64,000 nt of DNA, taken from assembly GCA_951406725.2 (NCBI GenBank), contig OX597827.1, forward strand, positions 30,690,001 to 30,754,000. The letters are read 5' to 3'. Shown in pieces: positions 7,605 to 32,935 of this stretch. Source of the DNA: Octopus vulgaris (Eukaryota). The notes under the pieces are model-generated. The model did no database searches and was not told the DNA's origin. It worked only from the letters and a program-made list of their open reading frames with translations. The position numbers and the translations under genes were made by a program. How positions within the stretch are numbered: position 1 is the first letter of the stretch; the number at the start of each line of letters is the position of its first letter.

Positions 7605-7608
7605 ACAT

Positions 7609-7679
<71 letters not shown>

Positions 7680-8984: not shown

Positions 8985-9023
<39 letters not shown>

Positions 9024-9025
<2 letters not shown>

Positions 9026-9371: not shown

Positions 9372-9375
9372 AATG

Positions 9376-9418
<43 letters not shown>

Positions 9419-10054: not shown

Positions 10055-10097
10055 CTGAGGGTAGTTTACTAATGCCATCTTCACTAACTTCAGAGCC
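10055..10097 (-). CDS. E93: Micro-exon (43 nt, phase 0-1), probably the next exon of the same gene: GSEVSEDGISKLPS
   Basis: Minus strand reads tcttttcatgttgaccttttcag|GGCTCTGAAG...CCCTCAG|gtaagt: perfect donor, good acceptor, open in phase 0 as the preceding exon requires. The peptide itself is not diagnostic. Confidence 0.6.
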
Positions 10098-11294
10098 CTG
10101 AAAAGGTCAACATGAAAAGATATTTATATAGTGACAATCTTGGGGTTTTTTCATTCAGAAACTATTCAGGTAGCAATTTATCCTTATAGAAGTTCTAGAG
10201 AGAAGTGAGAGAGAGCAGGAGGGAAGGAAAGACAGAGAGAGAGAGAGAAAGAGAGGGGGATGGAAGGAAGTAAAAAAGAGATAGGCAGAAAGATAGGTAG
10301 GTAGGTAGGTAGAGTGAATGAGAAAGAAAGACTCTGTGTGTGTATGTGTGTGTTTGAAATAAACAAGTCTTTAGAGAATTAAGTGCCCTTAACTGGGTCA
10401 ATAACAATAGGCACTGTTGGTTGTTAGAATCTTTGAAATAGAAGATATGAAGAAACAGGGAACATCTTAACTGATACAAGACTGGTGTGGGTAAGTATGT
10501 CCAAAAAAGTCATTGCCAACATTGTTACACACACACACTGGTATGTAGGTACAGATATATATTAATGTGTAAATGTATATATATGAGAAAGTGTGTATCA
10601 CACACACACACAAACATACACACACATGTACACAAATGCATATACAAACATATATATACATTGATTAGTCATGGGATTCATTAGAATCCAGGTGCATCAA
10701 CACATAGGATGCCATAACTGGCTAGGTGCCATGATGTGGGGTTCATGAGATAAAACAACCATGAGGTATCATGTGTTTATAGTGTACTGCAGGTGTGTGT
10801 ATATATATATGTAGGTACCAAATTCAATATAAACCATAGGTCCAACTCAGTGTTAGTTTCAGGTGTGGGGTAGATATAAAAAGAACTCAAATGGGGTTTA
10901 AAATTTACTGTAGCTGTTTTGGTAGAATTTTATTGATGTAGTCATAGATAACACCATGGTATAAATCCACCATCTTCAGGTAAAACTTTGAACAGGTGTA
11001 AACAGGCAAGGTAAGACCTTGAAGATGATCTATCCAACAAATGGAACGATGTTCTTTTATTCTTTTATTTGTTTCAGTCAATTAACTGCAGCCATGTGGA
11101 GCAACATCTTTAGTCAAACACATTGACCCCAGGACTTATTCTCTGTAAGCCTAGTACTTATTCTATCGATGTCTTTTGCCAAACTGCTAGGTTACAGGGA
11201 CATAAACATACCAACATCAGTTGTCAAGCGACGGTGGGGGACAAACACAAACACACACCTACATATATTTATATATATATATAAATATACATAC

Positions 11295-11356
<62 letters not shown>

Positions 11357-12566
11357 CACCTTGGGGAAATGTTTTCTACTATTGCCCTGGATCAGCCAAA
11401 GCCTTATGAGTGGATTTGGTAGAGGGAAACTGAAATAAGCCTGCAGTATATATGTATATGTATATATGTGTGTGTTTGTGTGTACCCTTGTCTAGTCATC
11501 ATGCGACAGTTGTAAACGATCCTCATTGTCATACAAGTGAGGTTTGTTTCCAGTCTGTCATGGAAAACATGTTGAATTATGGGAGAAGACCATTGTGCTT
11601 TTCCATGCCTACTTGGATCAGATGAAGTGTGTTGAAGGAGATGTTTTTTGTGACGGATGTCCTTCCTCTTGGCTGGTTATGTTTGGAAACAAAGGACACT
11701 GCTTTGTATAATGGTGGCACTCGTTTATGACTATCGCGTAGTGTGACCACATGGGGGTACAAACACAACACACACACATATATATGTATGAATATGTATA
11801 CATACATGAATACAAACATACACATATAAATATAGATAGTTAGATGGAAAGGTAGACAAATAGATACACATACAAACACACACACACACACACACACAAA
11901 ATGATAAAACCCTAGGATATATATATATATATATGTATAGACATACTTACATAAATAAGAACCGTTGCAGCCATCATGTATATTTGTGTGTGTGTGCATG
12001 TGTGTGTGTTTTAGTTTGTTTTAACTGTCATGGTTAAGGTGACCATACTGGAGCGTCACCTTAATTATACAGCTTGTGCTAAAATTATGTAATTTATGTA
12101 AGTTTAGTAATCCTGAGGTTGACTGTTATAGAATTTAAAATCCATGATATGCGCTTTACTTCTTGCACTCATTTTAGCCAGCACAGCAAAGGCCATGCTG
12201 GAGCAACAATCTCAGATATAGTATGATATATAGTCAATACAATGATGTAAGTGTTATAACACAACAAATGACCGCTGGTTGGCTGGCTGGGCTTCTGGCC
12301 AGACTTTAGACCCTCAAAATGTATTAACATTTAAACAATAAATAAATAAACAAAAGATTATGTAATAATAATTAATGGGGTATTTAAAAAAACCCAACCC
12401 AAATGTAAATGAATGCTTGTTGGTAACTTCTGATTTAGTGAAAGTCAAATCAGTAGAACAGGGTGTGTTTTTTTTTTTTTTAATAAAAACTTATTTCTGT
12501 TCCCATCAACTCATTCCTCCACCTATACTCACACCCACACAAGTAAAAAAAGAAAGAAATTTTTTC

Positions 12567-12602
<36 letters not shown>

Positions 12603-13132
12603 TTAATGATAGTGAAAATAATAGTAATAATAATAATAATAATCATAATGATTTTTTTCCAACCTTGATCTTAAATTTTGACAATGCACATACATTCACA
12701 CACACACACACACTTGTGCTTGAATATAGATATTTGCATGTCGGCCTCTGTGTGTGTATGTGTGTGTGCCTGTGTTTTGTGTGTGTATGTATATAGGTAG
12801 ATAGATAGAAAAAAATGAAGATTAAGAGATAGATATGATTTCTGATTTATGAAAGTTAGACTTAAATATCCCGTCATTCTTACAAACCATGCACTTTTTA
12901 AAATTTTGTAAAATTATGCTCAGAAAAGAAAAAAGAGAGAAATTTGTTAGAATTTTTGAAAAATATGAACATTACAAATGGTAAAAGACAACAAATAACC
13001 AAGAGAAAAGAAAAGTGGCAAAAAAACAAAAAAAAACAAAAACAAAACAAAACCTACCTAAAAAAAAAGAAGAAAAACAACGAAAGTGAAAAAAAAACAA
13101 AAAAATGAAAATGAAGAAAATATGTTATTTAC

Positions 13133-13209
13133 AGGGTAAGTTATTTTGGAATCACAATAAAAGCAGGTTTCCTGCGGTTCCCAGTCGCTGACAACAGTTG
13201 TTTCTAAAC
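13133..13209 (-). CDS. E93: Internal coding exon (77 nt, phase 1-0) of the same gene: (R)LETTVVSDWEPQETCFYCDSKITYP
   Basis: Minus strand reads atttttctctttctcacag|GTTTAGAAACA...TACCCT|gtaaat. The phase matches the 32867-32935 exon. The DW-x4-5-C-x2-C motif (DWEPQETCFYC) parallels LCORL DWSMDEKCSFC and the equivalent insect E93 motif. The donor is weaker than consensus. Confidence 0.75.
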
Positions 13210-13847
13210 CTGTGAGAAAGAGAAAAATAAAAGTATAAAAAATATCCCGTTAATATCTTTGTTAATAAATATGTAAGAGTATAAAATAATATACAAAGAT
13301 GTGTTATCAAAGAAAAAAAAAGTAAAAAACAAAACAAAACATGAACATCTTATAATGATGTTGTTGTTGTTGTTGGTTTGTTATTTAATATATGCGGCAA
13401 ACAAATGCTGGTTTGAACAGTTGAGTTAAACACAATTACAAAAAGGTCACAAGTGATCAAAGGAAATCCTGCCGTGAAGAAGTTAACGAGTTGGAAAAAA
13501 AAAAGTATGACAAGGACAAGAAATAAAAAAAACTTTTTAAAAGCCAGAAAGAAAAAAGGAAAGTTTGGTTGTCATTTGCTTGTTGTGGTGGCTTAGTGTT
13601 AAGGGAAGTGAAATGACTTGAAAAAAAGAGAAAACAGAATGATAAAGAGGTTATATATATATATATATATAAACATACATACACACACATACATGTTAAT
13701 ATCAAACAGCAAGAATGTGTGCACAACGCCACATTGGAGGGTAAATATTCTTATATTTGTGGGTTAACAAGGCAACCAATGGTTTCATGTCCAGAGATAT
13801 TCACAATTATTCAAGTGTGCAACATGGAAGAGTTGGTACTTCACATG

Positions 13848-14208
13848 AGGCACAGGAGTGGCTGTGGGGTAAGTCGCTTGCTTACTAGCCACATGATTCT
13901 GGGTTCAGTCCCACTGCATGGCACCTTGGGTAAGTGTCTTCTCTATTGCCTCGGGCCAACCAAAGCCTTGCGAGTGGATTTGGTAGATGGAAACTGAAAG
14001 AAGTCCATCATATATATACATATGTATGTGTGTATATCTTTGACGACCCATGCTAGTGTATTTACGTCCCTGTAACTTAGGGGTTCGGCAAAAGACACAG
14101 ATAGAATAAGTACTAGGCTTACAAAGAATAAGTCCTGGGGTCAATTTGCTTGACTAAAGGCAGTGCTCCAGCATGGCCACAGTCAAATGACTGAAACAAG
14201 TAAAGGAA
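13848..14208 (+). mobile_element. SINE family A copy
   Basis: AGGCACAGGAGTGGCTGTGGGG head through the GACTGAAACAAGTAAAG tail. Confidence 0.85.
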
Positions 14209-15614
14209 TATATATATATATATATTGTATGTAATGTGTAGATATGTATCATCATTATCATTTATTTAATGTGTAAGGCCAGTTTATGGGATTACCCTGG
14301 GTTTCCCGTCCATGGGTTGGACAGTTTGACAGGGTTTGTCAAACTGAAGATCTGTGTTAAGCTCCAGTGTCACCTCTGGCAAGTTTTCTTTAGCTGATGC
14401 CCTTCCTAACAGCACCCACTTTACAGTGTGTACTTAGTGCTTTTTCTTTTCGTCCCACCAGCACTACTAGTGACGTGGTAAAATAAGATGCAAGACAAGA
14501 AAAAACAGGAAAGGGAAAAGCCCCCATGTCTAAGTGGTGGTGGGGATTATGACGGGAGAGGTGACTTTATGCCAGGGACTGAGATACTAAAGAAACATAG
14601 AAGGACAAGAACAGGTATTTTGTTGTGTGTGTGTGTGCGTGCATGCAGGTACATGTTGTTGACATAGGAATTTGGAAACTTTGAGAGAATCATCATCATC
14701 ATCATCATCGTTTAACGTCCGTTTTCTATGCTGGCATAGATTGGACAGTTTCACAGAAGCCAGTAGGCTGCACCAAGCTCCAGTCTGATCTGGCAAGGTT
14801 TCTACAGCTGGATGCCCTTCCTAATGCCAACTACTCCGAGAGTGTAGTGGGTGCTTTTTATGCGCCACCGGTATGGGAGCCAGTTAGATGGCACTGGCAG
14901 TAACTATGTTCGGATGGTGCTTTTTATGTGCCACCAGCATATAAAGCTATAAATAATAGCATGTAAATATTGGGTTAAAACCCCTTTGAATAGAAAAAGT
15001 CAAAAGCTGCTCATAAGGCTTGAACTTACACCTTCTGTATACATGACACTGTTTGACTTTTATCTATCCAAGGGGTTCTTATTTATACCTTATCTGCTTT
15101 GAGTTCCATAAAAGGATTATGACACCGATCCCTGTCCCTCTATACCTCTACTTTCTCAACTGGCACAAAGCCCCACCACCCAGCTGAGGTCTGGTTTTTG
15201 TCTAACAAATTACTTGGTGACCCTGTCCGTGCTGGTGCTGCATAGAAAGCACTGGTGTTAGTACCATGTAAAAAGCACCCAGTCCACTCTATGTAAAGTG
15301 GTTGGCATTAGGAAGGGCATCTAGCCGTAGAAACCATGCCAAAACCAAAACCGATAATGGAGCCTGGTGCAGATCCCAGCTTTATCAGCTCCTGTCAAAC
15401 TGCCCAGCATGGAAAATGAATGTTAAATAATGCTGACAATGATGATGATAAATATATATATGTATTTATTTAGCAGAAGCAACAATGTTTGATAAATGCC
15501 AACACACAAAACTCTCGGCCCCAGAGTTACTCTGCTGCTTCAGCTAAATATTAATAAAAATATACATAAACTCTTATTTTGAGTTCTATTTTTCCTGTTT
15601 GCATCATCAAACCT

Positions 15615-15660
<46 letters not shown>

Positions 15661-15666
<6 letters not shown>

Positions 15667-17290
15667 TTCAATTTAGAGATAGTATACCACTACTTTTCAC
15701 CAAATAAAAAGAATTTTAATTTTTATTTTAAATACCTATTGTTTTATTCCTTGGCAACACGTGTTTCATGAGGTACATCCTTCCACTCCATGTTTCCCGG
15801 GAACCCCTCTCAAGATGCCACCCCAATCATCAGGCCCTTATAACTTTATCAATGTTCAATACAATAAACTATATTTTAATTTTTAAATCGCATAAATCCC
15901 ATACCCCAGTACTTCGCAATGTTGGGCCATCATTAGGACGTTGTAGGATAATGGAGCTATCGGTGAATTGCATATTTTCCTTACTTTACCATCAAGTTAT
16001 ATTTATTTTATTTTACTTTGTAAATTTTTATAAAGTTACCATTCGTATCACTTGAAATTAAAAAAAAAAAAGTTACCATTTGTATCACTTGAAATTTTGC
16101 AGTTCCTATTAGAACTATAGCTCTTTTATTTGAAACTAGCAGTATCGCCCGGCGTTGCTCGGGTTTGTAAGGGAAATAACTATATAAGCATTTTTAGAGA
16201 GTTACTTCCTTTATAGATGCCAATTCGGGCTTTCTTAGCCATTTCTGTTTTGGTGTCTTCAAGCCATGAAGTCGTTGTTCTAAAAGAACGCTGGTCTCCT
16301 TGACGACGCATTACGACGTTGATTTCCTTAAACTCCCTTCCCCACAGCTTCATGAGGGAGGGAAGAAGGGGGAGAAGCAAACACAGGTGCAGGTGTTTGA
16401 GCGTAGACGCCAACTCCGCCGCCATCGACACATGAAAAATTATGCATTAAAATGGAATAAAAAATGATGTTAAATTATTTTTAAAATCGTAGACTCATCG
16501 TAGACGCGCACTAATAGCCAGACGGGCTCGATATTAATCACGACTATAAGATACCCGAATTTGGTTAAACTGCACCGCAAAATGTGGGAGGAGTTAGGAA
16601 TCTAAATCGAAGGGGACAGACACTCACACAACTACAGTTTTATATATATAGATTATCTCTTCGTAATTGCCTCCATGTTTATTAACTTTTATTCGTCTAT
16701 ATTTTCCTTGCTATCTTTTTTTATTTTTATTTTTTTATTTTTACTTGGATTTACTTTTATTCACACTTTTTATTAAATATTATTAAAACAGTATTTGTAA
16801 ATTTAATTTTATTTGGAACACTATATATAACTAACATTGTTTTTGTAAATTTTCGTATATTTTTTGTGATTTTTATTCCTTACTTTATTCATGTAACTTT
16901 TTATCTTTATTTGAATTTTTAACTGAATTATGGCTTGTACTGTAAAGTCCAGTAAAACTAAACATACCTAATTTAAACATACTTATGGGATTTAAAATTA
17001 AAATATAGTTTATTGTATTGAACGTTGATAAAGTTATAAGGACCTGATGATTGGGGTGGTATCTTGAGAGGGGTTTCAGGGAAACACGGAGTGGTTTAGG
17101 AAGCCGAGGATGTACCTCATGAAACACGTGTTGCCAAGGAATAAAACAATAGGTATTTAAAATAAAAATAAAAATTCTTTTTATTTGGTGAGAAGTAGGG
17201 GTATACTATCTCTAAATTAAAATATATTTCTTCATTGAGAATAATTTGAACCTCTGTTATGCCGGAATTGTTATTCCTTGAAAAATAATA
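15661..17290. mobile_element. Penelope-like fold-back element (about 230-bp inverted arms) containing a nested Helitron
   Basis: 15661-15892 is inverted relative to about 16985-17227, with a one-sided tail at 17228-17290. Hammerhead-like cores in the arm at 17044-17135. Flanked by (TA)n. Confidence 0.6.
16136..16652 (-). mobile_element. Non-autonomous Helitron (517 bp)
   Basis: The minus strand starts A|TC (TCTATATATATAAAAC) and ends with the hairpin CCCGAGCAACGCCGGG followed by CGATACTGCTAG|T. These are canonical 5'-TC / 3'-CTAG ends, inserted between A and T with no TSD. Confidence 0.85.
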
Positions 17291-17319
17291 TTTATATATA
17301 TATATATATATATATATTG

Positions 17320-17545
17320 TTTATAGAAGACATAAATCTAGAGAAGTACACTCCAAGGTGTAGATTAGAGTATATTTTAAAAATGGGGAAGGCCGGTTTA
17401 TGGAATTTCTTTGGGTTTCCTGCCTATAAAGGGTTTAGCTTTTTGGCATTTCATCAGACCTCAAAATCTGTTGGCCTACGACCTCCTTAGGCCAACAGTG
17501 TAATCCCATAAACCAGCCTTCCCATTTTAAATTTATATATATATT
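17320..17545. mobile_element. Short fold-back element with hammerhead-like core (Penelope-like)
   Basis: Inverted arms (aaaaatggggaaggccggtttatgg / ccataaaccagccttcccattttaaa), internal hairpin ctgttggccta...taggccaacag, and a minus-strand CTGATGA..tgcc..ggca.GAAAC. Related fragment at about 14275-14310. Confidence 0.45.
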
Positions 17546-18127
17546 ATATATAAAGATATTTAATGATACAGTGTTCCAGCATGGCCACAATCAAATGACT
17601 AAAATTAGGAGGAGAAATAAAAAAAAAAGAAAAATATTGGTAATTTATTAGTAAAGCTTAAAATACAAGAAAATATAAATGAAAGCCAGTTTTCTCATAA
17701 CAGCGGTTGTTAAATCTTTAACAAAAGTAAATAACTTCTGTGATACACTTTAATGTATCATTGAACAAGGTTCTAAAGATATTAATTGAAAATATTAATT
17801 AGTGTTTGTTCTATATCAATTATTTTTTTTAGAATTATATTTTTATCGAATAAACTAAGAATGACTGTTAATCAGGCTTTATTCTATCGGATAATTTTAC
17901 TGTAGAACTTTAATTGTCTCCCTTTACAATCTTAAAATCTCCCGTAATGTTATGGTTTCATAAAGAATATTTTATAATGCGAATGCTTGATTAATTAAAC
18001 GAAAATATGTACATCAATACTTCAGTCCTAAAATTTCATTTCTTATCTTATAAGCAACAAATATATATATTAAAATTATGCATGTATGTGCGAGCGAATA
18101 TGTGTGTGTGTGACTGGTTAAAACAAC

Positions 18128-18657
18128 AGGTGCAGGAGTGGTTGTGTAGTAAGTAGCCTGCTTATCAACCACATGGTTCCAGGTTCAGTCCCAATGCGTG
18201 GCATCTTGGGCAAGTGTCTTCTACTATAGCCTCGGACTAGCCAAAGCCTTGTGAGTGGATTTGGTAGACGGAAATTGAGAGAAGTCCGTCATGTGTGTAT
18301 ATATATTATTTTTCTGGAACTCAACTGAGGAAAGAAAACTTTGAATGACCCATCCTTGTTTTCTTTGTATTGTCTATCTGGATGTTTTGTTATCCCTTTT
18401 TTGTATCACCTAACTGTCTGGATGTTTTGCATTCTTGTCCCATTTTAAGGATTTATATATATATGTTTGTGTGTGTGTTTGTCCTTCCACAATCGCTTGA
18501 CAACTGATGTTGGTGTGTTTACGTCCCCATAACTTAGCAATTCAGCAAAAGACACCGATAGAATTATTCTTTGTAATAAGTCCTGGGGTCGATTTGTTCA
18601 ACTAAAGGCGGTGCTCCAGTATGGCTGCAGTCAAAATGACTGAAACAAATAAAAGAA
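18128..18657 (+). mobile_element. SINE family A copy with an unrelated ~150-bp insert in its TA tract
   Basis: Head 18128-18295, insert about 18305-18450, tail about 18465-18657. Confidence 0.75.
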
Positions 18658-18672
18658 CGTATGTGCATGTGA

Positions 18673-18703
<31 letters not shown>

Positions 18704-20822
18704 GCTGTGTGGTCAAAACTTTTGCTTCTCAACAGCATGGTTTTGTGTTCAGTTCTAATGTGCAGCAGTTTGGGCAAGAATCTTCTATGCCCTTGATTAA
18801 CCAATGCCATGTGAGGAAACTGCACAAACCTACACGTGTGTGTGTGTGTGCATATGTGTGTTTGTCTCACACCACTTGACAAATGAGATAGGTTTATATA
18901 CATGTCCAGGGGCAGGTGTGGGTGTCTGACAAGAGGTTTGCTTCCCAACCACATGGCTCTGGGTCCAATCCCACTACTGGCACCTTGGACAAGAGTCCTC
19001 TGCTATAGCCTTGGGCCAACTAAAGCCTTGAGAGTGGATTTGGTAGTAAGCTAGTTGGGTGCATGTGTGTGAGCAAGAAAAAGTAAACCTTAAAATTATA
19101 ATGATGATGATGACTTAGCAATTTGAAAAAAAAAAGGGAAAAAGGGGACTAATAGAATAATTGCCAGACTTAACATAAGTATTGAGGTTGAGTCGATCAA
19201 TTAACTCTAAACCCTTTAAGTGTGGCGGATGCAGGGGTGTTGCCTTAGTTGCCCGGGCAACACCCTTTCTAGCTGAGCCGACACCAAACAAATCAGGACC
19301 AAGATTTTCAAGCAACAGTTTCACAGCATTTCTCTTTCATTTACATATGGTCTGCTACACCAAAGTTAAAATCCATAAAAATAAGTCCATTTGTTACAAA
19401 CTGTGATTCCCACCTTATACAGTATTTTTTCAAAACTTTTGGACAACACTCCAAAAAAATCCCGGCTTCTCCTTTGTTTAAGGTGGCGTGTCAGCATGGT
19501 TGCAGCCCAGCTACTTTTCTCTCCCCTCTTTTACCCTTTTCCAATGAAAAGGTACCTCAATAGTGAATACAATAAGTTCATTATAATTTGAAGAATAAAA
19601 AAAAGTATTATACATTGTATAATAAAAGCAGATTGAATGGTATGATGATAATAATGTCTGAACGAAGGCATCCTACATAAGTTAAGAAATCAAAAACAGT
19701 TTCTGAATTAACAACTAGGAAGAATGTAAGTAACGCTGATACCAGTGAATCTCTCAAAAATATTAATCTTTTTAGTGCAAAATCAAATTTTGTGGTTATT
19801 CCAGTATTGAGGTTAAATATCTACCAAAACATAGAATTGGTATTTTCTGCCAGTTACGTTGCTTCAATAAACTTGACTCAACAGGAAATAGATTCAAACA
19901 TGACATTCCTCAACAAAAGATTGATTGTTATATAAAACTGCTTTCTGCAGTTAAAGATAATGGAATTTTGAGTGGATATTTATTATCTTGATTTCCACAG
20001 TAAAAGGATTAAACAGCAGTGAGGGTCACAAGTTATCGCCCTTAGTACCTTGCCCAGTGGCTTAGAAAGGAGAAAGGCTCTTAATCTCAGCATTAACATA
20101 TACTAGTATTTGACAGCAGCGTAAGTTAAATGATAACCAATAACAGACAGACACATCAACATTCGCACTGATCCTAGCAAAGAACAAAGCAACAAGGAGA
20201 CAGACAACTGTGAACAGGAGATACTTTTTTTTTTCATTCAGAGAATCTTGAATCAATCAGGAAGGTCTAAACATGTTGATGTATCTAAGAAGTTTTTAGT
20301 CCCAAACAAAAAATAGGGTACTTTTTGATATTTCTAAAAAATAGTTTACTCAGCAGAAAAGTGGGTAGTTCTCATGAAATTTTGCAGGACCTCTGCAAAC
20401 TTTGAATAACTCTAAGTCGATGTCTGAACGTGGGTGGGCAGGGAATTCCTGAGGGATTATGCACTGAGGAAGAAGGAGTTAACAAAAAATGGTTAATGCA
20501 GGGGTAGGTCACTCACACACAGATGTATGTAACTGTGTAAGTATGTCTGAATGTATGTATAGATGTGTGTATGCATGAGTCTTTTTGTGCGTGTGTGTGC
20601 ATGTACAACTCCACGCAGTCGAGTATGGGACTTTTCTCTCTCTTTGTCTTATGAATTACTTGGTGACCTCACTTGTGCGAGTGTCATGGAAAAAGAACTC
20701 AACAGATGCTGTGAAGTGGTCGATGCTAGGAAAGGCATCCAATCATTGAGACCATGTCAAAGCAGATATTGGAGTTCAATGCAGGCCTGCCGACTTATTG
20801 AATCATGTCAAATCATCTAACC

Positions 20823-21103
20823 CAGTGGCTCCCAAACTTTTTTCGGGCTTGACACCCAGGTCACATTCATAGCACCCCCACCCCAATTAACCATCACAAT
20901 CATAGACCTCTTTCTGAAGCAAATACAAAGCAACTGTATTTCACAAATAAAACTTAACCTAACAAACCCATTATTTTGTTGTTTTTACATGAATCGCTAT
21001 CTCATTATCATCCCACTTTTCTTCAATGCCCCCTAAGAACTTTCCACCAACCCAGGGGTGGGGTGGGGGTGGGGGGCAATACTGCCCACTTTGGGAACCA
21101 TTG
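20823..21103. mobile_element. hAT MITE inserted into a family C element
   Basis: TIRs CAGTGGCTCCCAAA / TTTGGGAACCATTG; 8-bp TSD atctaacc (20815-20822) / atgtaacc (21104-21111). The host repeat resumes after it. Confidence 0.75.
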
Positions 21104-21633: not shown

Positions 21634-22371
21634 CTAACGTCTGCATTCCATGCTGGCATGAGTTGGACAGTTCAACAGGAACTGGCAAGGCTGGAGAGCT
21701 ACATCAAACTCTATTTATCTGTTTTGGCATGGTTTCTATGGGTGGATGCCCTTCCTAATGTCAACCGCTTTACAGAGTGCACTGGATGCTCTTTTACCTG
21801 GCACTGGCACGTGTGCCTTTTACGTGGCACCAATTTGCAAGACGAAGACCTCTCAGCTTAGAGAGTGGAACCAAGGCTGTGAGCCAGGTGGGAGGTTAGA
21901 ATAACACTTTCTGCTGAAGGCACAAGGCCTGAAATTTTGGAGGAGGCGGATGTGGGGTGGTGGTGGCAGGTGGGTTTTTGCTGGTGGGGGAGCTAGTTGA
22001 TTACATTGACCCCAGAGCTGAAATAGTACAGTATTTAATTGACCCTCAAAGGATGAAAGGTAAAGTGGTATTTGAACTCAGAACATAAAGAGCCGGAAGG
22101 AATGCTGCCAAGCATTTTGCCTGGCATTCTGATGACTCAGCCAGCTCACCATCTTAGAAGCAACTATTTCTACTACAGGTGCAAGGCCTGAAATTTTGGT
22201 GGGTTGGTGGATAGTTGATTGCATTGATCCCAGAGCTCGACCAGGACTTTATTTTATAGATCCCGAAAGAATGAAAAGCAAAGTGGACCTTGGTGGAATT
22301 TGAAATCAGAGTTCAATAAATTGGAAGAAATGCTGCTATGCAGTTTGTCTGATGTGCCACCTCATCATCTA

Positions 22372-22406
<35 letters not shown>

Positions 22407-22436
22407 TAACAGTAACAACAACAACAACAACAATAA

Positions 22437-23237
22437 TGTTCTGACCCTAAATGCAGATTCTGCAACACATTTGATGAAACAATAGGTCACCTTGTCTTGG
22501 GATGTCCTGTGCTGACACCAAGCGAATATAAAAATTGCCACGACAGGGTAGGACAGTATTTACATTGGAAAATATGTAAACACTACAAAATCAGCTCTCC
22601 TGCTTACTGGTATGAACATCATCCTGAGCCAGTCATTGAAGATAAAAATGCCTCTATCCTTTGGGATTTTCCAGTCAACACTGACAGAATGATCCAGGTT
22701 AATCGACCAGGCACAATTATTAAAGACAGGGAAGAAAATACTTGTACATTAATAGAGGTAAGCGTTCCTAGGATGACTAAATTACAACAGGTATATAGCC
22801 CATTGTCTGTATTATAGTGCATTGTTGTACCATTCAAAACTTTTTGTTCTTTATAAAAAAATATATCCGTCAAGGAATTTGACAAACTAAGTGAACATAA
22901 GAACCTGGAAATTGAAATACAAAAGATGTGGCATCTTAAAATAAGAACTGTTCCTGTTATTGTAGGTGCCCTGGGTATGATAAAAAAGGGATGTCAGAAA
23001 AAACTTGATAAGATCCCAGGAGAACCATGTCTCAGAGATATCCAAAAGATTGTACTGACAAATACTGCCCACATCCTTAGAAAAACCTAGCCATTTAAAT
23101 GTCTGTGTTGTATTACATGAAGATATTTCACTACCTCCCCTCCCCAAGCTTTCAGTCATATTGTAACATCTCTTATCTTTCACTCATCCCAAGACACTGG
23201 GTGTGTCTCGGCAAGTAACAAACATGCAGATTAAAAG

Positions 23238-23240
<3 letters not shown>
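22437..23240 (+). mobile_element. 5'-truncated R4/Dong-like non-LTR retrotransposon (zinc knuckle, restriction-like endonuclease, 3' UTR)
   Basis: Translates CRFCNTFDETIGHLVLGC (CX2CX8HX4C), KNCHDRV (RHD-like), LWDFPVNTDRMIQVNRPG...LIEVSVP, then KEFDKLSEHKNL...VPVIVGALG...TAHILRK. Flanked on both sides by (TAA)n; interrupted at about 22771-22853. Confidence 0.85.
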
Positions 23241-23284
<44 letters not shown>

Positions 23285-23285
<1 letters not shown>

Positions 23286-23360
23286 GGACAGCTAGGAAAC
23301 TTAGGAGGGTTCCTGGCATCTAAGGCTACTTGTTGTAACCCAATGTTAGGATTCTTTTCT
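23285..23360 (+). mobile_element. Extreme 3' stub of a second R4/Dong-like family
   Basis: Follows the TAA run and reads TARKLRRVPGI*, like the usual TARILRRVL C-terminus of these elements. Confidence 0.4.
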
Positions 23361-24305
23361 TCTCCAACAGTTTAATCTGTTGAGTGTATATGAATAACAA
23401 TAATCCTTTCTACTAAAGGCACAAGGTGTGAAATTTTGAGGGAGGGGGACTAGGCAATCACATCGACTTCCCAGTGTTTCACTGGTACTTAATTTATTGA
23501 CTGCGAAAGGATGAAAGGCAAAATCAACTTGGCAGAATTTGAACTCAGAATGTAAAGCTGGAAGAAATGCTGTCAAGCATTTTGTCCAGAACAGTAATGA
23601 TTCTGTCAGCATGCCATCACTTTAATGAAATAATGATAATAGCTCATCAATCAAATGCCTGAACAATTAATTCCAACAATGGACTACTTAATTGGCAAAA
23701 TGGCTAATTAGTTGTCTAAAAGAAATGAAATTTAACCACTGCTTGTCTAAAAGAAGTGAAATTTAACCAGTGCACGTGTTTCTTGTTGGCATAGTGACCG
23801 TCCCAATATAAAACAAAATCTATTTCAACATGCAATTTTGTATCAATAATCTTGCAAAACCAATTCAAAATCAAGTTATAAAATGGCTAAGATTAATTTT
23901 TAAAGAAAGACTGAGTGCGAGAACGAGTGGTGGAATATGGGAGGAAAATAGCGAGACAGAAGTGAGAAACAGAGTTAGAAAGAAGAGAGTGAGAGGTCTG
24001 TGGAGAATAACACACCTAGGACCCTCCATAATGTGGTTGGTATTAGGAAAGGCATTGAGCTGTAGAAACCATGTCAAAACAAGGCAACTGGAGATTGGTG
24101 CAGTTGTGCAGTGTGCTAACTCCTATCAACCCAACCAACCCATGCCAGCATGGAAAACAGACGTTAAATGATGATGATGATAACTTATATGTGTGTCAGA
24201 GTGTATACATATTTATACATACATACATACAAACACACACACACACATATACATATCGTCTTCTAAATGTTTTGCGTTCTTGTCCCAGTTTGTATTTTTT
24301 TACAT

Positions 24306-24365
<60 letters not shown>

Positions 24366-24784
24366 TCATTGCCAGTGCCACCAGACTGGCTCCTGTGCAG
24401 CTAGCACGTAGAAAACACCTTTTGAGCATGGTCGTTGCCTGAACCATCTGACTGGCCCTCATGCCGGTTGCATGTAAAAGCACCCACTACACTCTTGGAG
24501 TGGTTGGCGTTAGGAAGGGCATCCAGCTGTAGAAACTCTGCCAGATCAGATTGAGCCTGGTGCAGCCTCTGGCTCACCAGTCCTCAGTCAAACTGTCCAA
24601 CCCATGCCAGCACGGAAAGCGGACATTAAACAATGATGATGATACACACACACACACACAGACATACATACATACATAATTAGCAGAGAGAAAGAGATGG
24701 AGGGGAAAAAGAAAGAATTAGAGGATGAGGAGAAGAAGAGTCATCATGTGAAAAAGAAAGTGAGTAGAAGAAGGGGTTTAGTAA

Positions 24785-24831
<47 letters not shown>

Positions 24832-25254
24832 AAAGGAGTATACTGTGTGTGAGAGAGACAGATGGACAGACTGACACTGAATCAGAATGAGAGAAAAAGA
24901 GACGAATAAACCAAAAAAAAAACCTCCCTCCTCCAAAAAAGAAAAACACACATAAACAAAATATCAAACAAACAAGGAATAAGAAATAAGCTGCAAACAA
25001 ACAGCAGCAGCAGCAACAGAGAAAGCAGATTCTTCAACACAAGTAGTTTTTAGCAATGGATTGAATTGTTCTGCTTGTAAAATAAATAATAATGGACTGG
25101 GATGAAAAGAACCAGTAAGTGTTAAAGAAAGAGAACCAATCCGCAAGCAAGGGACAGTTTAAGATATAATCACTGAGAATCTAAATTTAGTTAGTTGAAG
25201 ACAACAAGTAGATGCTAAGTGGGTTTGGCATATTGATACTGGTACACTTGGTCT

Positions 25255-25301
<47 letters not shown>

Positions 25302-25870
25302 TATGTATATGTAATGTAATGTATGGATGTGAGTGTGCTGTATTGAGTAGAGAGGCAAGAGCAAGTCAGCTGATGGGTTCACATATAGATGCGGGCTGAT
25401 GGCAGTAACAGCTGGTGGTGATGGTAGTGTTGGCCGGTGGTGGCTGGTGGCTGTGGTGTGTCTAGTTTTGATCAGTCAGCCTCCAGTTATATTGATAAGA
25501 TCTACCACTTGGGAACACATCGGATCACAATGAGGTCTATTATGCATTCAGTATTATTACAATTTCTACTGATGACATTTTGGTGCACAATAGAACTGGT
25601 TACTCATTACATGTAATAGTAATTCACCTCGGCAATAAAATGTTATACAATGAAAGAAGAAGAAGAAGAAGGAGAAGAAGAAGAAAGAAGAGGAGGAAGA
25701 GAAGAAAGAAAGAAAGAAAGAAGAGGAGGGGGAAGAGAAAGAAGGAAAAGGAGAAGAAGAAGGAAAAATAAAGAGAGAAGAGAGAAAGAAAAGATGGTTG
25801 AAGGTTCAACAATTTATAATGAGAAGGACAGACTCGTACAGAAGAGTAAAATAGTTGTGAAGAATTTTGG

Positions 25871-25902
<32 letters not shown>

Positions 25903-26154
25903 CAGAGGTTGATAGATAGATAAAAAGAGAGATAGATAGATAGATAGAGATAGTGAGAGGGAAAGCGGTGGGGGAGAATGTTGTAAGGTGATTTAAATTT
26001 AAACTGAAATTTAAGATTTCACACCAATTTATGACTCAGACACCAGTTTAATAATGACAAAAGTTATTTTTCTACATTCTTCATTATTTTAAAAGTTAAA
26101 TGAAACAAAAGCAGAGTATTTCAATAGAAACATGATAACAATAGGATTAACAGA

Positions 26155-26548
26155 AGATTTAGCTGCTATTTTTAGTAGGTCGAACAATCATGTAGAGGCC
26201 TCCTTAATTGCAGCAGGGTGTGAGATGAGGGAGATTCAGCTGCCATTTCTAACAGGTCAAACAATTGCAAAGATTATCTGAAAATGTTGTTTTCAAACAC
26301 AGCAATTTGAAAATAGGGATGAGAGATAATGGAGATTTGGCTGCTATTTCTCACAGGTCAAACAATAGCGTAAAGATTCTCTTGTCAGATAATCTGAACA
26401 TCTTGTTTTTATACAAAGCCAGTTGAAAATAGACGATGCGAAATGAGGGAGATTTAGCTGCTATTTTTAGCTGGTCAGACAATCAACACAGATATTCCAT
26501 TGTCAAATTATCTGAAGATGCTTTTATACAAAACCAGTCAGAAATAAG
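26155..26548. repeat. Degenerate tandem array of four units of about 77-117 bp
   Basis: Core GAGATTTRGCTGCTATTTYT..CAGGTC at about 26155, 26231, 26332 and 26449; units 2-4 also share ATWATCTGAA...GAAAATAG. Confidence 0.65.
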
Positions 26549-27420
26549 TTGTTATATGGAAATGGTACAATGTAGATTTGTAATGCTAATTTTGGAAAAT
26601 TTATAGACTTTGATTAATGGCCAACATTACCATTACCGTTTTAACTGTTCAGCGCTATACTATTATGAGTTATGACCCTTCCTTCCTAAGCATTGCCTTT
26701 TATTAACATTTCTCCTGGTCTCGTGCATATTAATTCCTTCCTACTCTCCCTAGATTAATTCCAACTGTCATATCACATTGACATATTGACTTTACAGTAA
26801 TGGCAACAAATGGCCCAACATTTGATCATCAAATTTTCATGATCTATCTTCCTCCTCCTCCTCCTCTTCCTCTTCTTCTTCTTCTATGATTACGATTATT
26901 ATTATTATTTAATCTTCTTCTGCCTAATTATACAAGTGTTGGTGAGATGGAATAAGCAAGTGGATACGAAGCTCAGATGAAGCCAAAGAGAGTTTCTATA
27001 TTATAACTCGATCAGTTTGAATAAAAGCAGCAGACAATCTCATTTGGAAAATACTTCCAGCTTACTTTTCTAACATCAATGAAACTTCTATGTGGTTGCT
27101 TGAAATAGCAGCCAAATCACTCTTAATCACAACCCTGTTTTGTTTCTACGTTTGTTTCATGATTATTTTGCCATGCTTGCTGGTGTTGCTGTGTGGTTAA
27201 GAACCTTGCTTCCCAATCTTGTGGTTTTTGGTTCAATCCCACTACACAGCACCTGAGGCAAGTGTTTTCTATTATAACCCAAAACATTGTCCATCCTTAT
27301 GTTCTGAGTTCAAATTCTGCCATGGTCGACTTTGCATTTCAGCCTTTCGGGGTCAATAAAATAAATACCAGCTGAGTACTGGGGCCGATGCAAGTGCTTT
27401 CTATTTTTATTTTTTTATTT

Positions 27421-27639
27421 TCCACAAGGGGCTAAACACGGAGGGGACAAACAAGGACAGACAAAGGGATTAAGTCGATTACATTGACCCCAGTGTGTAA
27501 CTGGTACTTATTTAATTGACCCCGAAAAGATGAAAGGCAAAGTGGACCTCGGTAGAATTTGAACTCAGAACGTAGCAGCAGATGAAATATCGCTAAGCAT
27601 TTCACCTGGCATGCTAACGATTCTGCCAGCTCGCTGCCT
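27421..27639 (-). mobile_element. tRNA-derived SINE, family B (Nin/Deu-domain-like body)
   Basis: Minus strand GGCAGCGAGCTGGCAGAATCGTTAGCA...GAGTTCAAATTC (B box)...GCCTTTCATCTTTTCGGGGTCAATTAAATAAGTACCAG. About 20 copies, e.g. 8295-8500, 8780-8985, 21905-22350, 23400-23620, 40045-40238, 43000-43218, 43873-44605, 47030-47483, 55148-55580, 56205-56377, mostly beside (TAA)n. Confidence 0.8.
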
Positions 27640-27882
27640 AGCCTCAAACATGGTCTATCTTTATGTTGTGAGTTCAAATTCCACCTGGTTGACTTTGTCT
27701 TTCAACCTTTCAGGCTCAAAAAAATAAATACCAGTTACATACTGGAGTCGATGTAATCAACTTACCCCCTCCTGCAAAATTCAGGTCTGGTGCCTATAGC
27801 AGAAAGGATTATGGCCCAAAGCCAACCAAAGCATTTTGAGTGGATTTTAGAGACTAAAACTGAGAAAAGCCCTTTGCATAAT

Positions 27883-28260
27883 ATGTGTGTGTGTGTGTTT
27901 ATCTGTGTGTGTATGTGTGTGCATGTTTGTATGTGTACATGTGTGTACGAGTGTGTGTTTATGTGGGTGCACATGTGTATTAGTGTGTTTACATGTGTGC
28001 ACATGTGTGTGTGTATGTGTGTATGAATGTGTATGTTTGTGTGCATGTGTACATGTGTGTGTGCGTTGTACAAGTGTACATGTGTGCGTGTGTGCATGTG
28101 TACATGTGGGTATGCATGTGTACAGGTGTGTGTGCATGTACATGTATGCATATGTGTGTGTGTATATGTGTATATGTATGTGTTTGTGTGTACATGTGTG
28201 TTTGTGTATGTACATGTGCATATGTGTACATGTGTATATGTGTGTGTGTGTGTGTGTGTA
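27883..28260. repeat. Degenerate (TG/CA)n-rich alternating purine-pyrimidine tract
   Basis: Seen directly; it explains the cluster of C/V/H/T-rich ORFs. Confidence 0.9.
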
Positions 28261-28719
28261 CCCATGTTTGACATCACATGATAGCTGCAAAGTGGCAATA
28301 CCATCATACAGGTAACATTGTTTGTTCTCAGTCTCTCATGTAAAAACACATGTCTAGCTAAAGGGAAATATTCACTTGTATGGAAACAGGTGAGGGTTAG
28401 CAACAGCAAAGGCATCTAGCTGTAGAAAATGTACCTCAATGAATTGTGTGACCCCTGCAAGCATGAACAGGCAGATGCTAAAACAATCTCTCATCTTTTA
28501 CTTGTTTCAATCATTAGATTGCAGCCACGCTGAGGCATCTGCCTTGAATTTTTAGTCGAAGGAATCAACCCCAGGACTTACTTTTTAAGTTTGGTACTAA
28601 TTCTATCAGTGTCTTTTGCCAAACTGCTAGGTTATGGGGATGCAAACACACCAACACTGGTTGTCAAGCAGTGGTGGTAGGACAAACACAGACAGAAAGA
28701 TACACGCACACATATATAT

Positions 28720-29820
28720 ATAGTACGAAAAAGGCAGGAGGAGAATTTCGATTATTCCCATGTGGTGAGTTGTAATGCAAATATATACATATATATAAAA
28801 TAAAAGAAGGAAAATGCACACAGTCTACATAGTTTAAATATATTTTCTAATATATTTTATAAGTGAAAGAGTCTTGTTTTGTCGACCGGTTTCACTTTTG
28901 CTAATCATGACATTGAAATTATTGTAATTTTGTATTTTCTTAAGAAGATTTTAGTCCATGTTGTGTATGAAAGTTTGTGAATGAAATGAAGTAGAAAATT
29001 CTAAGGGGAGGTAACTGGTGACTGTTATTATTTGGGACAGGGGAGGTAATATCTACTATTTTGGGAAGGGGATAAATAAATATACAGAAACTCAAAAACT
29101 GAAGTAGTGAGATGAAATATTTACAGTGATGGTTATGTGAACATGAGTTAAAATATATACTGAGACCAAAGTTTGTTATGCATTCATATTTAGGCGTGTT
29201 CTGTATTTTTGATAAATAAAGATTCTTTATTTAAATGTTCTTGTACAGATATTGTTGGAAGGCTTGGAATTCCTATTCAAAGAGAGAGGTTCATAATTAA
29301 AACCAACTTAACTTGTGCTTCCAAGAATCTAATTCATGTTATAACTTGTTCAGGTTGTGGACATAACTACATAGGACACATAGAGAGATATGCAGGTAAT
29401 ATCAAACAAATCTTAACACTTTTCCTCATCTACCAGTGCAAAGAAATAATTTCTGTACAAGAACGTTTCAATAAAGAAAATTTATTTGTCAAAAAATACA
29501 GAACATGCCTAAATATGAATGCATAAAAACTTTGGTCTCAGTATATATTTTAATTCATGTTCACATACCCATCACTGTAAATACTTCATCTCACTACTTT
29601 AGCTTTTGAGTTTTTCTGTATTCATTTATTCCCTCACTAAAGTATGAGCAATTACCTCCCTTGGCCCAAATAATAATGATCATCAATTACCTCCCCTTAG
29701 ATAACTCTACTTGTAGCGAAACCGGTTGACAAACGCAATACTCTTTCACTTATAAAATATATCAAAAAATATATTAAAACTATGTAAACTGTGTGCATTT
29801 TCCTTCTTTTATTTTATATA
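28720..29820 (+). mobile_element. Penelope-like retroelement remnant (GIY-YIG endonuclease fragment with inverted pseudo-LTRs), nested in a SINE A
   Basis: ORF 29209-29526 contains NLTCASKNLIHVITCSGCGHNYIG (Penelope GIY-YIG pattern). About 28791-29253 is inverted relative to about 29448-29820. The SINE A tail (28495-28715) and head (29825-29992) flank it on the minus strand. Confidence 0.85.
28880..28912 (-). ncRNA. Minimal type I hammerhead-ribozyme-like motif (variant core)
   Basis: Minus strand TGTC-ATGATTA-GC-AAAA-GT-GAAAC-CG-GTC-GACA: stem I TGTC/GACA, GAAAC, palindromic ACCGGT stem III and a GTC cleavage triplet. The core deviates from CUGAnGA. Confidence 0.5.
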
Positions 29821-30519
29821 TATACACACACGACAGGCTCCTTTCAGTTTTCATCTACCAAATTCACTCACAAGTCTTTGGTCGACCCAAGGGTATAGTA
29901 GAAGATATTTGTCCATGGTGCCAAGCAGTGGGACTGAACCTGGAACCATGTGGTTGGGAAGGAAGCTTCTTACTACACAGCCATGCCTGCACCTACAATG
30001 CTGATGAAAATTTTCCATCCTTGCATGGACTGGAAGAATATATTATTTGAAGCATTGTTTTACAGCTGGATGCCTTTCCTGACATTAAACCTTACCTGTT
30101 TATCAGATAAGGGATCCCTTAATCCTTATGACTTTAAAGACACAAGGTGCCCATACAATTCACTGACTGGAGAAACTGACGACAACATCAACCACTGCAC
30201 TTTTATACAAGCAATTGCAGATGTAAACACGCACACACACACGTGATGCTCCCCTCCATTTTTTAAACAACACATTCACTGTTCACTTTCTGTGCAATAT
30301 TCTATGCACTGTACATGCACTTCTGGCTACTTTTTCTGATGAGTTGTAGTGCACCTGAGCACTGTATACAATAAGTTCATTATACATCATTATATATACA
30401 TACATACAATGGTCCTCTTTTAATGTTCATGTACTAAATCCATAAAACACTTGCCCAAAGTGCTGTGCATGTCTGTGTGTATGTATGTGCATGCATGTGG
30501 GAATGTGTGTGTGTGTGTG

Positions 30520-30566
<47 letters not shown>

Positions 30567-31199
30567 CTCTCCCCAGTGTACACATACATACTCACATTTG
30601 TGTGTGTGTGTGAGTGTTATATGCACATAGCACTGAGAGTACACATGAAATAGATTCCAGTGCCCTGAAGGCTCCCAAGAAGTAGTCATGATAGTTTCCT
30701 GTTGTATCTAGGTGACCTAATTAGTGGTGGAGGTGGGTGTTCTGAGACATTGTTGCCAGAATAGGAACTGGGTGCAAAATGTTTAGGGAACTACTACCTC
30801 TGGTGGTGACAAAGAGAAGGGCTCCTTCGTCAGAGAGGAGTGCAGGTTTGTAAGATGCTTGAGTACAAAGTGGGATGCTGCATAATGCAAAATGTTAGTC
30901 TTGAATATGAAGAATTAGCAGAAGCTGGAAAGAAAAAAGGCAAACATGCTCTGCTAGATGTATTAAGGAAGAATACATGAATGACAGAGTCTTGAAATGC
31001 TGCACTGGAGAGAAACTGCTGAATGATGTAAAACTGTTCCTGAGATTGTGATTGTTTACACTGATATAAACCAGTGTTTGTGTCCCTAATGTCCAGTAAC
31101 TTATAAATAGAGATTGATGAAATAAGTACCATACATATACATATGTATGTACATATGTATGTACATACATATGTATGTACATACATATATACATACATA

Positions 31200-31420
31200 C
31201 AAGTAGGGTGCTGAAAAGTTCCTGGTTTTGGGTAAAATAAAATACAAGAAGATCAATTAATTATGATTTTATTCAACATATTCCCCTCTCAGATTTACAC
31301 ACTTATTGCAGTGGTCCTTCAGTTTTTCTAAGCCCTGTAAAAGAACTTGGAAGGTTGGGCCTCCAGCCAGGCCTTTTGCAATACCTTAAAGCCAAGAACT
31401 TTTCAACCCCCCCCCCCCTC

Positions 31421-31421
<1 letters not shown>
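31200..31421. mobile_element. Tc1/mariner-type MITE (copy 1, part of a local duplication)
   Basis: TA-flanked; imperfect TIRs GGGTGCTGAAAAGTTCCTGGTTT / AAAGCCAAGAACTTTTCAACCCC. Confidence 0.7.
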
Positions 31422-31451
<30 letters not shown>

Positions 31452-31792
31452 TGTATGTATGTATGTATGGATAGATATATACACACACGGTATAAAATGA
31501 AAAACATGAAGATTCCTAATATTTTCAAAAGTAAAAGAAAACAATAAATAGTTAGGAACACACAAGTACTGAGGCTGATGTGATAGACGAAACTTCTGAA
31601 AACACTGCCTCATCATGGTTGCAGTTGAATGGCTGGAACCGAAATAAATAAATAAAAGAGTAAATGAAGAGAAGCTTTTAATGCTTTCTTACCATTTTTC
31701 ATTGAAACCTGTTGTTTGTTGTTACGTAAACAACTGACCTAGACATTTTGATAGTAATACACATTTTCTTGTGTACCACATTTTCCAACATA

Positions 31793-32009
31793 AAATAAAA
31801 TAATAAATGTGCCCTTTTAAAGCCTAGCCAGGCTCATGGGCCCGGTTTCTATGGCGTATGTGTTCCCCAGCTGGACGGGACGCCAGTCCATCATAGCGTT
31901 ACTCATTTTTGCCAGCTGAGTGAACTGGAGCAACGTAAAATGAAGTGTTTTGCTAAAGAACGCAATGCGTCACCCGGTCCAGGAATCGTCACTAAGCCAC
32001 ACGCTTCCA
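31793..32009 (-). mobile_element. tRNA-derived SINE, family D, with a 16-bp TSD
   Basis: Direct repeat cacattttccaacata at 31777-31792 and 32010-32025. Related heads at about 44800-44950 (-) and 56933-57070 (+). Confidence 0.7.
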
Positions 32010-32866
32010 CACATTTTCCAACATACCTTTCTAAAATCCTGTGGCATTTTACACAGAATGTTTGATTCTGAAAAGTTGTCTTGGTGCAAAAGCCAACCTA
32101 CCATTCTTGGGCTGCAAATTTTGGCCTGCAAAAATTTGACTCGCATGTTGGCAACTACAGCAATTCAAGCTTTTACACTCAGTTACCATTCGCAGCACCA
32201 ACAGTGAATTATGCCTCAGCTTGGTAGGTAAGACAATAAGGATTGGCATTGTTGCTGGTGGATCAGTCAAGATCCTTGCAATGGTACAGAAATGAAATGG
32301 TTATTTTGAAGGACTCATTTTTTGTGAGCATTCCAAAGACTACAGAGGCCTGTTTGAAGAGGTTTATATTCTGCTTGCCTAGCTAGCAGTCATTGTTTGA
32401 AATTAAGCTGGCTTATTCTTTGAATTGGGAGAAGGTGTTTAGGTGATACTGTTGTATTGAGAAATGGGAGAGGAGAGAAGGTGGTGCCAAATGGTCTTGG
32501 TTTTCTAGGACTTAATTGTTAAACCCAGTTGTCATTGTCATTTTAACATTCACTTTTCCATGTTTCCATGGGTCGGAAAGAGTTTATCAAAGCTCATTTC
32601 TTATGGTTGGATGCCCTTCCTGTCACCAACCCTGACTCATTTCCAACTAAGATCATATTCCCCCATGGCCAGACATGTTTTCACAGAAGATTGGAAATGT
32701 ATGAAACTGCTTGTATGATGGCAACACTCAGACAAATATAAATAAAAATATTAAAAAATAAAGATCCCAATTTTTTATTTTCTTCCATATAAATGCTGTT
32801 AGGTGATTGCATAAAATACCGAAACCTGATCAATACAGAAAAACATGACAGAAGAATTATACTCAC

Positions 32867-32935
32867 GATTAAAGGGTTCCAGCAATTCTGAAACAAGATC
32901 ATGACCACCAATTTCCAAAGCAACTGCTTCTAAAC
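32867..32935 (-). CDS. E93: Internal coding exon (69 nt, phase 1-1) of a probable E93/Eip93F-Mblk-1-LCOR(L) family transcription factor: (G)LEAVALEIGGHDLVSELLEPFN(R)
   Basis: Minus strand reads ctttcatttcttattcttttacag|GTTTAGAAGCA...CCCTTTAATC|gtgagt: strong polypyrimidine acceptor, consensus donor, open frame, non-repetitive sequence. The peptide resembles insect E93 GLERVAEELMG and vertebrate LCORL GFESILEGLYG (recalled from memory, not searched). Confidence 0.75.

What the first reader, a model, noticed from the sequence alone, without database searches (positions are those of the whole stretch)
10055..32935. Three micro-exons of a probable cephalopod E93/LCOR-family gene, not recoverable from the ORF track
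Seen: three minus-strand exons (69, 77 and 43 nt) with AG/GT sites and phases 1-1, 1-0 and 0-1 that join into one open peptide across introns of about 19.7 kb and 3.0 kb. Knowledge (from memory): the GLE-x-VA-x-E-x-x-G and DW-x4-5-CxxC motifs characterise the N-terminus of insect E93, the adult specifier of metamorphosis, and of vertebrate LCORL; the C-terminal pipsqueak HTH domains would lie below coordinate 1. Inference: this is the octopus orthologue and retains the N-terminal Cys-containing module, possibly with conserved intron phases. Such exons are easily missed by gene predictors.
Basis: partly seen in the sequence, partly recalled or inferred. Interest (0 to 1): 0.75.

Follow-up and report, generated by a model that had tools for sequence, protein, structure and literature searches.

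The report
Micro-exons of a mollusc E93/LCORL gene
Two of three tiny exons in this window match the front end of E93/LCORL, a known animal developmental transcription factor whose DNA-binding part lies just beyond the window, so this is likely the ordinary single-copy gene of a cephalopod, although that front end is a conserved cysteine module, likely zinc-binding, that Pfam does not list.

Summary
The three minus-strand exons are there as described (69, 77, 43 nt; AG/GT; phases 1-1, 1-0, 0-1). Beyond the window's low end lie a 208-nt exon with a PLDLS motif and a 2212-nt terminal exon holding the genome's two best HTH_psq matches; the five exons read through 868 codons without a stop. Homologues are mollusc, annelid, arthropod, nematode and ambulacrarian E93/Mblk-1/LCORL-like proteins. 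Exons A and B match their N-terminus (up to 13/22 and 13/25 identical) with the modal spacing. Exon C has no sequence match and rests on splice sites and phase. Not shown: spliced reads, and the first coding exon (the C-x4-C half of the module), which was not found in 1.39 Mb upstream (four assembly gaps) nor genome-wide. So this is a new member of a known family, probably from a cephalopod. The residue of interest is the roughly 75-residue four-cysteine N-terminal module: conserved across bilaterian homologues, without a Pfam or solved-structure match here, likely a zinc site, and halved in some insect isoforms by alternative first exons.

The parts
32867..32935 (-). Exon A, 69 nt, phase 1-1: the GLE..PFN segment of the N-terminal module (second coding exon in homologues)
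   Evidence: Splice sites; 13/22 identical to Owenia and Solemya proteins, best placement at residue 33 in 27 of 33 homologues
13210..32866 (-). Intron A-B, 19,657 nt, phase 1, GT-AG
   Evidence: no exon is missing between A and B by spacing
13133..13209 (-). Exon B, 77 nt, phase 1-0: DW-x5-CxxC, the second cysteine pair
   Evidence: 13/25 identical to chiton, Solemya and Potamilus proteins; top profile hit in 1.45 Mb; found genome-wide by a Solemya query
10098..13132 (-). Intron B-C, 3,035 nt, phase 0, GT-AG (inferred with exon C)
10055..10097 (-). Exon C, 43 nt, phase 0-1: 14-residue linker without sequence similarity to homologues (inferred exon)
   Evidence: Splice sites; needed to keep frame between B and D; no similarity
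1..10054 (-). Window part of intron C-D (15,557 nt, phase 1). It leads out of the window to exon D (G000:C14:30684290-30684497, 208 nt, phase 1-2, with PLDLS) and terminal exon E (G000:C14:30678706-30680917, 2212 nt, two HTH_psq domains)
   Evidence: Exon D. Exon E; PF05225 E 3.7e-28, two stretches; human LCoR 2cob_A E 2e-14

Best explanation
Exons A and B match the N-terminal coding exons of E93/Mblk-1/LCORL proteins and, with exon C, are likely spliced to two further exons below the window, giving what is likely this mollusc's single E93 orthologue, a transcription factor predicted to bind DNA through two pipsqueak helix-turn-helix domains. How it would work: the two psq domains bind target DNA (shown for Mblk-1/Mlr in the literature; inferred here from a near-invariant second domain); the PLDLS motif of exon D recruits the corepressor CtBP (motif shown, binding inferred); an LLxxL motif between the psq domains may contact nuclear receptors (motif shown, binding inferred). 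Exons A and B, with an upstream exon not yet located, build a four-cysteine module (C-x4-C, long helix, DW-x5-CxxC) that most likely clamps one zinc ion and serves as a protein-interaction surface (inferred from conservation only). An upstream coding exon must exist if A-D are translated, since the first Met in the chain is codon 129, at the end of exon D.
For: Splice sites and phases chain over five exons, 868 codons with no internal stop. Best two HTH_psq matches of the genome on the right strand and side. Named homologues are Mblk-1-like/LCORL-like. Profile of homologue N-termini ranks B, D, A top among 50,931 pieces. A+B spacing equals the modal spacing, 37 of 52. A chiton full-length query hits one locus significantly, with exons E, D and (weakly) B in order. 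Tree: inside Mollusca (SH-aLRT 92, quick tree), with two unnamed relatives. Cys conservation: 45 of 45 rows at three positions and 43 of 45 at the fourth, the other two with a nearby Cys.
Against: No read or transcript joining the exons was seen. The first coding exon was not found in 1.39 Mb upstream (best 11.0 bits against 52-75 bits for held-out true exons) nor by three protein and four pattern searches of the genome. Exon C has no homology. No database protein holding exon D was found (0 of 7 candidates). The N-terminal LxxLL found in 12 of 27 spiralian homologues (near-variants in 12 more) reads TPDLL here. The AlphaFold model of the module has pTM 0.42 and gives no metal geometry.
Confidence: 0.92

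Rival explanations
1. Same gene, but this lineage has lost the ancestral first coding exon and uses another first exon, so the protein keeps only half of the cysteine module, like the short Drosophila isoform.
For: No C-x4-C exon in 1.39 Mb upstream or genome-wide. D. willistoni and Plodia isoforms splice unrelated first exons onto the same LE acceptor.
Against: Four scaffold gaps lie upstream (window 161178, 303799, 987031, 1082547); genome searches are seed-limited and also missed exon A; the exon is kept in chiton, gastropod, bivalve, annelid and brachiopod homologues; both Cys of exon B are intact.
Confidence: 0.2
2. A, B, D and E are real but exon C is not the true linker (another phase 0-1 exon, or the shorter donor, is used).
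For: No similarity to homologues; 5 other phase-compatible candidates pass a loose filter.
Against: C has a full-consensus donor (CAG|GTAAGT) and good acceptor; by eye the other candidates are repeat-derived or pyrimidine runs; its length roughly fits the gap between CxxC and the YCPQ block in homologues.
Confidence: 0.1
3. The micro-exons are untranslated relics and the protein starts at the Met at the end of exon D.
For: No upstream start found; first Met at codon 129; some insect isoforms start downstream.
Against: About 50-60% identity to the best homologues, intact GLE, DW and CxxC, intact splice sites and frame are not expected of relics.
Confidence: 0.04
4. Chance: AG/GT-bounded open stretches in repeat-rich DNA.
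For: A loose scan gives 22 candidate exon rows on this strand of the window; exon A alone scores only E 0.04-0.06.
Confidence: 0.01

Closest known systems
Insect E93 (Eip93F) / honeybee Mblk-1
   Same: Two HTH_psq domains, PxDLS and LLxxL motifs, N-terminal GLE and DW-x5-CxxC motifs, a splice boundary at the residue before LE consistent with phase 1 (PMC5345709 passage: E93B's 5'-most 32 codons lie apart).
   Different: Insects often carry long insertions between GLE and DW; in pancrustaceans PxDLS lies between the psq domains (PMC12897451 passages), here upstream of the first; no ecdysone or metamorphosis role is shown for a mollusc.
Mollusc, annelid and brachiopod 'Mblk-1-like / LCORL-like' proteins (e.g. 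chiton XP_064600310.1)
   Same: Exon A and B sequence, spacing, YCPQ and ELKIP blocks, both psq domains, C-terminal block.
   Different: Linker after CxxC is unrelated and split as a 43-nt exon; N-terminal LxxLL reads TPDLL; PxDL[ST] is kept as in chiton, Lingula, Owenia, Lamellibrachia (4 of 27) but not in the bivalves and gastropods seen; long Q/N runs.
Vertebrate LCoR / LCORL (mouse Mlr2 / Mlr1)
   Same: Second psq domain matches human LCoR 2cob_A; CtBP binding is reported for LCoR and Mlr (PMC5343783) and a CtBP-type motif is present here.
   Different: Mammalian proteins have only the second HTH (PMC5343783). That LCORL shares the N-terminal Cys module and exon sizes is recalled, not tested: no vertebrate N-terminus was retrieved.

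Membership tests
E93/Mblk-1/LCoR(L) | Two HTH_psq domains (RHF1, RHF2) | tested here: met
   PF05225, two stretches, E 3.7e-28
E93/Mblk-1/LCoR(L) | RHF2 of the E93/LCoR type rather than another psq family | tested here: met
   Top named homologues 85-97% identical over the region, named Mblk-1-like/LCORL-like; only PDB sequence match is LCoR; the genome's 5 other psq matches look unlike it
E93/Mblk-1/LCoR(L) | CtBP-interaction motif PxDLS | tested here: met
   PLDLS in exon D; none in exon E
E93/Mblk-1/LCoR(L) | NR box (LxxLL or LLxxL) | tested here: inconclusive
   LLHEL between the psq domains and LLRKL near the C-terminus, but no LxxLL in exons D or E, and the spiralian N-terminal box reads TPDLL
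E93/Mblk-1/LCoR(L) | N-terminal GLE and DW-x5-CxxC motifs at family spacing | tested here: met
E93/Mblk-1/LCoR(L) | First coding exon with C-x4-C and QERR..ELxxW | tested here: inconclusive
   Not found in 1.39 Mb upstream or genome-wide; four gaps; seed-limited searches
E93/Mblk-1/LCoR(L) | Single-copy orthologue placed by phylogeny | tested here: met
   One locus (stricter first look, so a floor); inside Mollusca in a quick tree without outgroup
E93/Mblk-1/LCoR(L) | Exons joined in one mRNA | not tested
   No reads were laid; inferred from phases and homology
E93/Mblk-1/LCoR(L) | Sequence-specific DNA binding, CtBP binding, hormone response | not testable with these tools
   Known for insect and mammalian members (PMC5343783, PMC11053319)
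Cys4 zinc-binding domain | Four conserved Cys in two pairs | tested here: met
   In homologues: 43-45 of 45 rows per position; in this genome only the second pair is located
Cys4 zinc-binding domain | Four thiols converge on one metal | not testable with these tools
   Model coordinates are not returned; helices 7-41, 43-49, 71-92 put both pairs at helix N-ends, compatible with a hairpin closure but not proof

The most novel reading that the evidence does not exclude
The first ~75 residues of E93/Mblk-1/LCORL proteins form an undescribed pan-bilaterian Cys4 zinc-clamp domain (C-x4-C, 35-residue helix, DW-x5-CxxC), spread over three small exons, which insects switch off by alternative first exons that delete the first Cys pair; this cephalopod either hides that first exon in an assembly gap or has lost it for good and makes only the half-module form.
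Probability: 0.5. Interest if true: 0.55.

Novelty: new member of a known kind. Interest (0 to 1): 0.3.

Why it matters
The gene itself is expected: orthologues are annotated across molluscs. It supplies a five-exon model for a probable cephalopod E93, a candidate for juvenile-to-adult timing and neuronal remodelling in an animal without insect-type metamorphosis. The part that could matter more widely is the N-terminal module: the family papers read here list only HTH, NR box and CtBP motifs, while the module is conserved from nematodes to sea stars and differs between the E93A-type and E93B-type isoforms, so it offers a testable reason for isoform-specific function of a master developmental regulator.

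Tried and rejected
First coding exon: profile scans of 424 kb, 824 kb and 1,424 kb above coordinate 1 (best 9.4, 9.7, 11.0 bits); genome-wide protein queries and patterns (1 match; 31: 3; 46: 17; 47: 0). The 21 pattern matches and the one weak hit were scored and rejected: they match only the pattern's own positions, and most are copies of one LINE-type repeat. Expression: no RNA holder on record was listed, and no reads were laid, so splicing stays open. Exon D as query against longer proteins: 0 of 7 candidates scored, so whether a cephalopod annotation includes these exons is unknown. N-terminal module: no Pfam family over it on 7 full-length homologues (one sub-threshold MitMem_reg row just behind it in one) or on exons A, B, D, none in NCBIfam (0 of 4; a prokaryote library), no ESM Atlas hit, no Foldseek match and best VIA Z 4.5 to unrelated long helices, no PDB sequence match to it: none of these shows the fold is new. 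Full-length model uninformative (pTM 0.25). The complex predictor was not available, so a homodimer with zinc is untested. The careful tree did not finish; the quick tree is used. Earlier findings: none near or by words. Nine paper searches listed nothing on a mollusc E93 or on the Cys module; listings only, subscription papers and supplements not seen.
Full report
Observation. The three exons are in the sequence at the stated coordinates, each with a pyrimidine tract, CAG acceptor and GT donor, and one frame is open through all three. The window is 36% GC and rich in microsatellites, and is G000:C14:30690001-30754000 of a 2.80 Gb genome in 227 contigs. Introns are 19,657 and 3,035 nt. Negative coordinates below continue the window's numbering past its low end.

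The rest of the gene. A genome-wide Pfam HTH_psq search gave 7 matches; the best two (E 1.4e-11, 3.6e-10) share one 750-residue open frame on the minus strand 9-11 kb below coordinate 1. An acceptor scan between exon C and that frame gave 12 loose candidates, of which one, exon D, -5503 to -5710 (208 nt, phase 1 to 2), carries PLDLS and blocks shared with homologues. The terminal exon E begins at -9083 in phase 2 and ends with the stop at -11294. The chain A-B-C-D-E reads 868 codons to a stop with none inside; skipping B, C or D brings a stop at codon 25, 98 or 84, while skipping A keeps frame; the first Met is codon 129.

What it is. The second psq region found 649 proteins at E up to 1e-10, 120 listed; the named ones are mostly mollusc, annelid, brachiopod, nemertean and arthropod proteins called Mblk-1-like, LCORL-like or hypothetical. 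No octopus-named protein was listed and exon D found no database protein (0 of 7 candidates). A profile made only from homologue N-termini ranks the frames of B, D and A first to third of 50,931 pieces in 854 kb. Exon A is 13/22 and exon B 13/25 identical to the best homologues, placed at residues 33 (27 of 33) and 56 (21 of 33). The distance from GLE to DW across the A/B junction is 31, the value in 37 of 52 matched rows, and DW-to-Cys is 5, as in 50 of 52. Exon C matches nothing. The second psq domain matches human LCoR, 2cob_A, at E 2e-14. A chiton full-length query finds one significant locus (stricter first look). A quick tree of 32 rows, from the first psq domain onward, puts the protein with two unnamed sequences (100) inside Mollusca (92), outside the bivalve and gastropod clades.

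Intron conservation, indirect. Three Drosophila willistoni models differ up to the residue before LERV, which is G, C or G, as a phase-1 split codon would give; two Plodia isoforms switch at the same place; a Bulinus model repeats exactly the 23-residue unit of exon A; a Lottia model has an insertion at the end of that unit. PMC5345709 (passages seen) states that the 5'-most 32 codons of E93B lie outside a deletion that removes all of E93A. Vertebrate exon phases were not tested.

What is missing. Homologues begin with 32 residues holding C-x4-C. Held-out versions of that exon score 52-75 bits whole and 16-38 bits in halves (8 tests); the best score in 1.39 Mb upstream of exon A is 11.0 bits. 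Three protein and four pattern searches of the genome gave only chance matches for it, but the protein searches also missed exon A. Four 100-N gaps lie upstream. Of 308 longer open frames in the first 854 kb, 80 were scanned: 50 hit transposon-type families, 30 hit nothing, none a host gene family; genes of small exons would escape this. An assembly gap is the likeliest reason; loss with a replacement first exon is the rival (0.2). No spliced reads were obtained, so joining is inferred.

The module. In 45 of 54 aligned rows that have the N-terminal half, three Cys positions are invariant and the fourth is Cys in 43, with a nearby Cys in the other two. Rows include hemichordate, echinoderm, nematode, mite and centipede proteins. 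Pfam has no family there. AlphaFold2 on a gastropod homologue (96 residues, 54 rows) gives mean pLDDT 81.9 but pTM 0.42, with helices 7-41, 43-49 and 71-92; structure searches found only unrelated helices. A Cys4 zinc site closing a helical hairpin is my inference (about 0.6). The family descriptions I read name HTH, NR box and CtBP motifs and not this module: PMC5343783 (parts 1-2 of 4 and passages), PMC12897451 and PMC11053319 (passages); PMC12728225 (passages) mentions the two isoforms only. Nine searches listed no paper on it; that is not proof it is unpublished, and figures and supplements were not seen.

Mechanism. Shown: exon structure, psq domains, motifs, homology. Inferred from the family: DNA binding by the psq domains, repression through CtBP at PLDLS, possible nuclear-receptor contact by LLxxL. 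Against a full NR box: the N-terminal LxxLL of 12 of 27 spiralian homologues reads TPDLL here. A role in developmental timing or neuronal remodelling is extrapolated from insects and C. elegans and untested in molluscs.

Verdict. Real exons of a known, expected gene: new member of a known kind, interest 0.3. The uncatalogued Cys4 module and the unlocated first exon are the leads worth following.

Noticed in passing
window 35844-36797 (+): 317-residue open frame of a Tc1/mariner-type transposase (PF01498 E 7e-19, PF13358 E 1e-15), upstream of exon A.
   Followed up: partly
window 31162-31567 and 32983-33377: Two 94.6% identical copies of a ~400-nt stretch, one ending 48 nt above exon A's first base, one inside the A-B intron; the exon is not duplicated. 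By eye the core has inverted ends, like a small DNA-transposon derivative.
   Followed up: partly
window 11052-11484, 13843-14232, 18133-18657, 28494-28722, 37229-37640, 45739-46228, 51980-52434, 59981-60402: Many 70-85% identical copies of a dispersed ~400-nt SINE-like repeat, on both strands.
   Followed up: no
window 61802-62158 (+) and -153..197 (-): Two near-identical copies of another repeat about 62 kb apart in opposite orientation (nearly the same translation).
   Followed up: no
window 32936 to about 824000 (G000:C14 up to 31514000): Transposon-rich stretch above exon A: 50 of 80 scanned long frames of the region hit reverse transcriptase, endonuclease, integrase, transposase, PIF1 helicase or LINE-associated families, none a host gene family; may be a very large first intron or gene desert.
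   Followed up: partly
exon E, G000:C14:30678706-30680917 (L011): Long poly-Q and poly-N runs; 736 residues against about 600 in the closest unnamed relative P0002.
   Followed up: no
exon D, G000:C14:30684290-30684497 (L008): The N-terminal PxDLS is shared with chiton, brachiopod and annelids (4 of 27) but absent from the first 200 residues of the bivalve and gastropod homologues seen.
   Followed up: partly
L003-L007 (C3 three times, C11, C1): Five further HTH_psq matches in the genome, unlike the E93-type domains.
   Followed up: no
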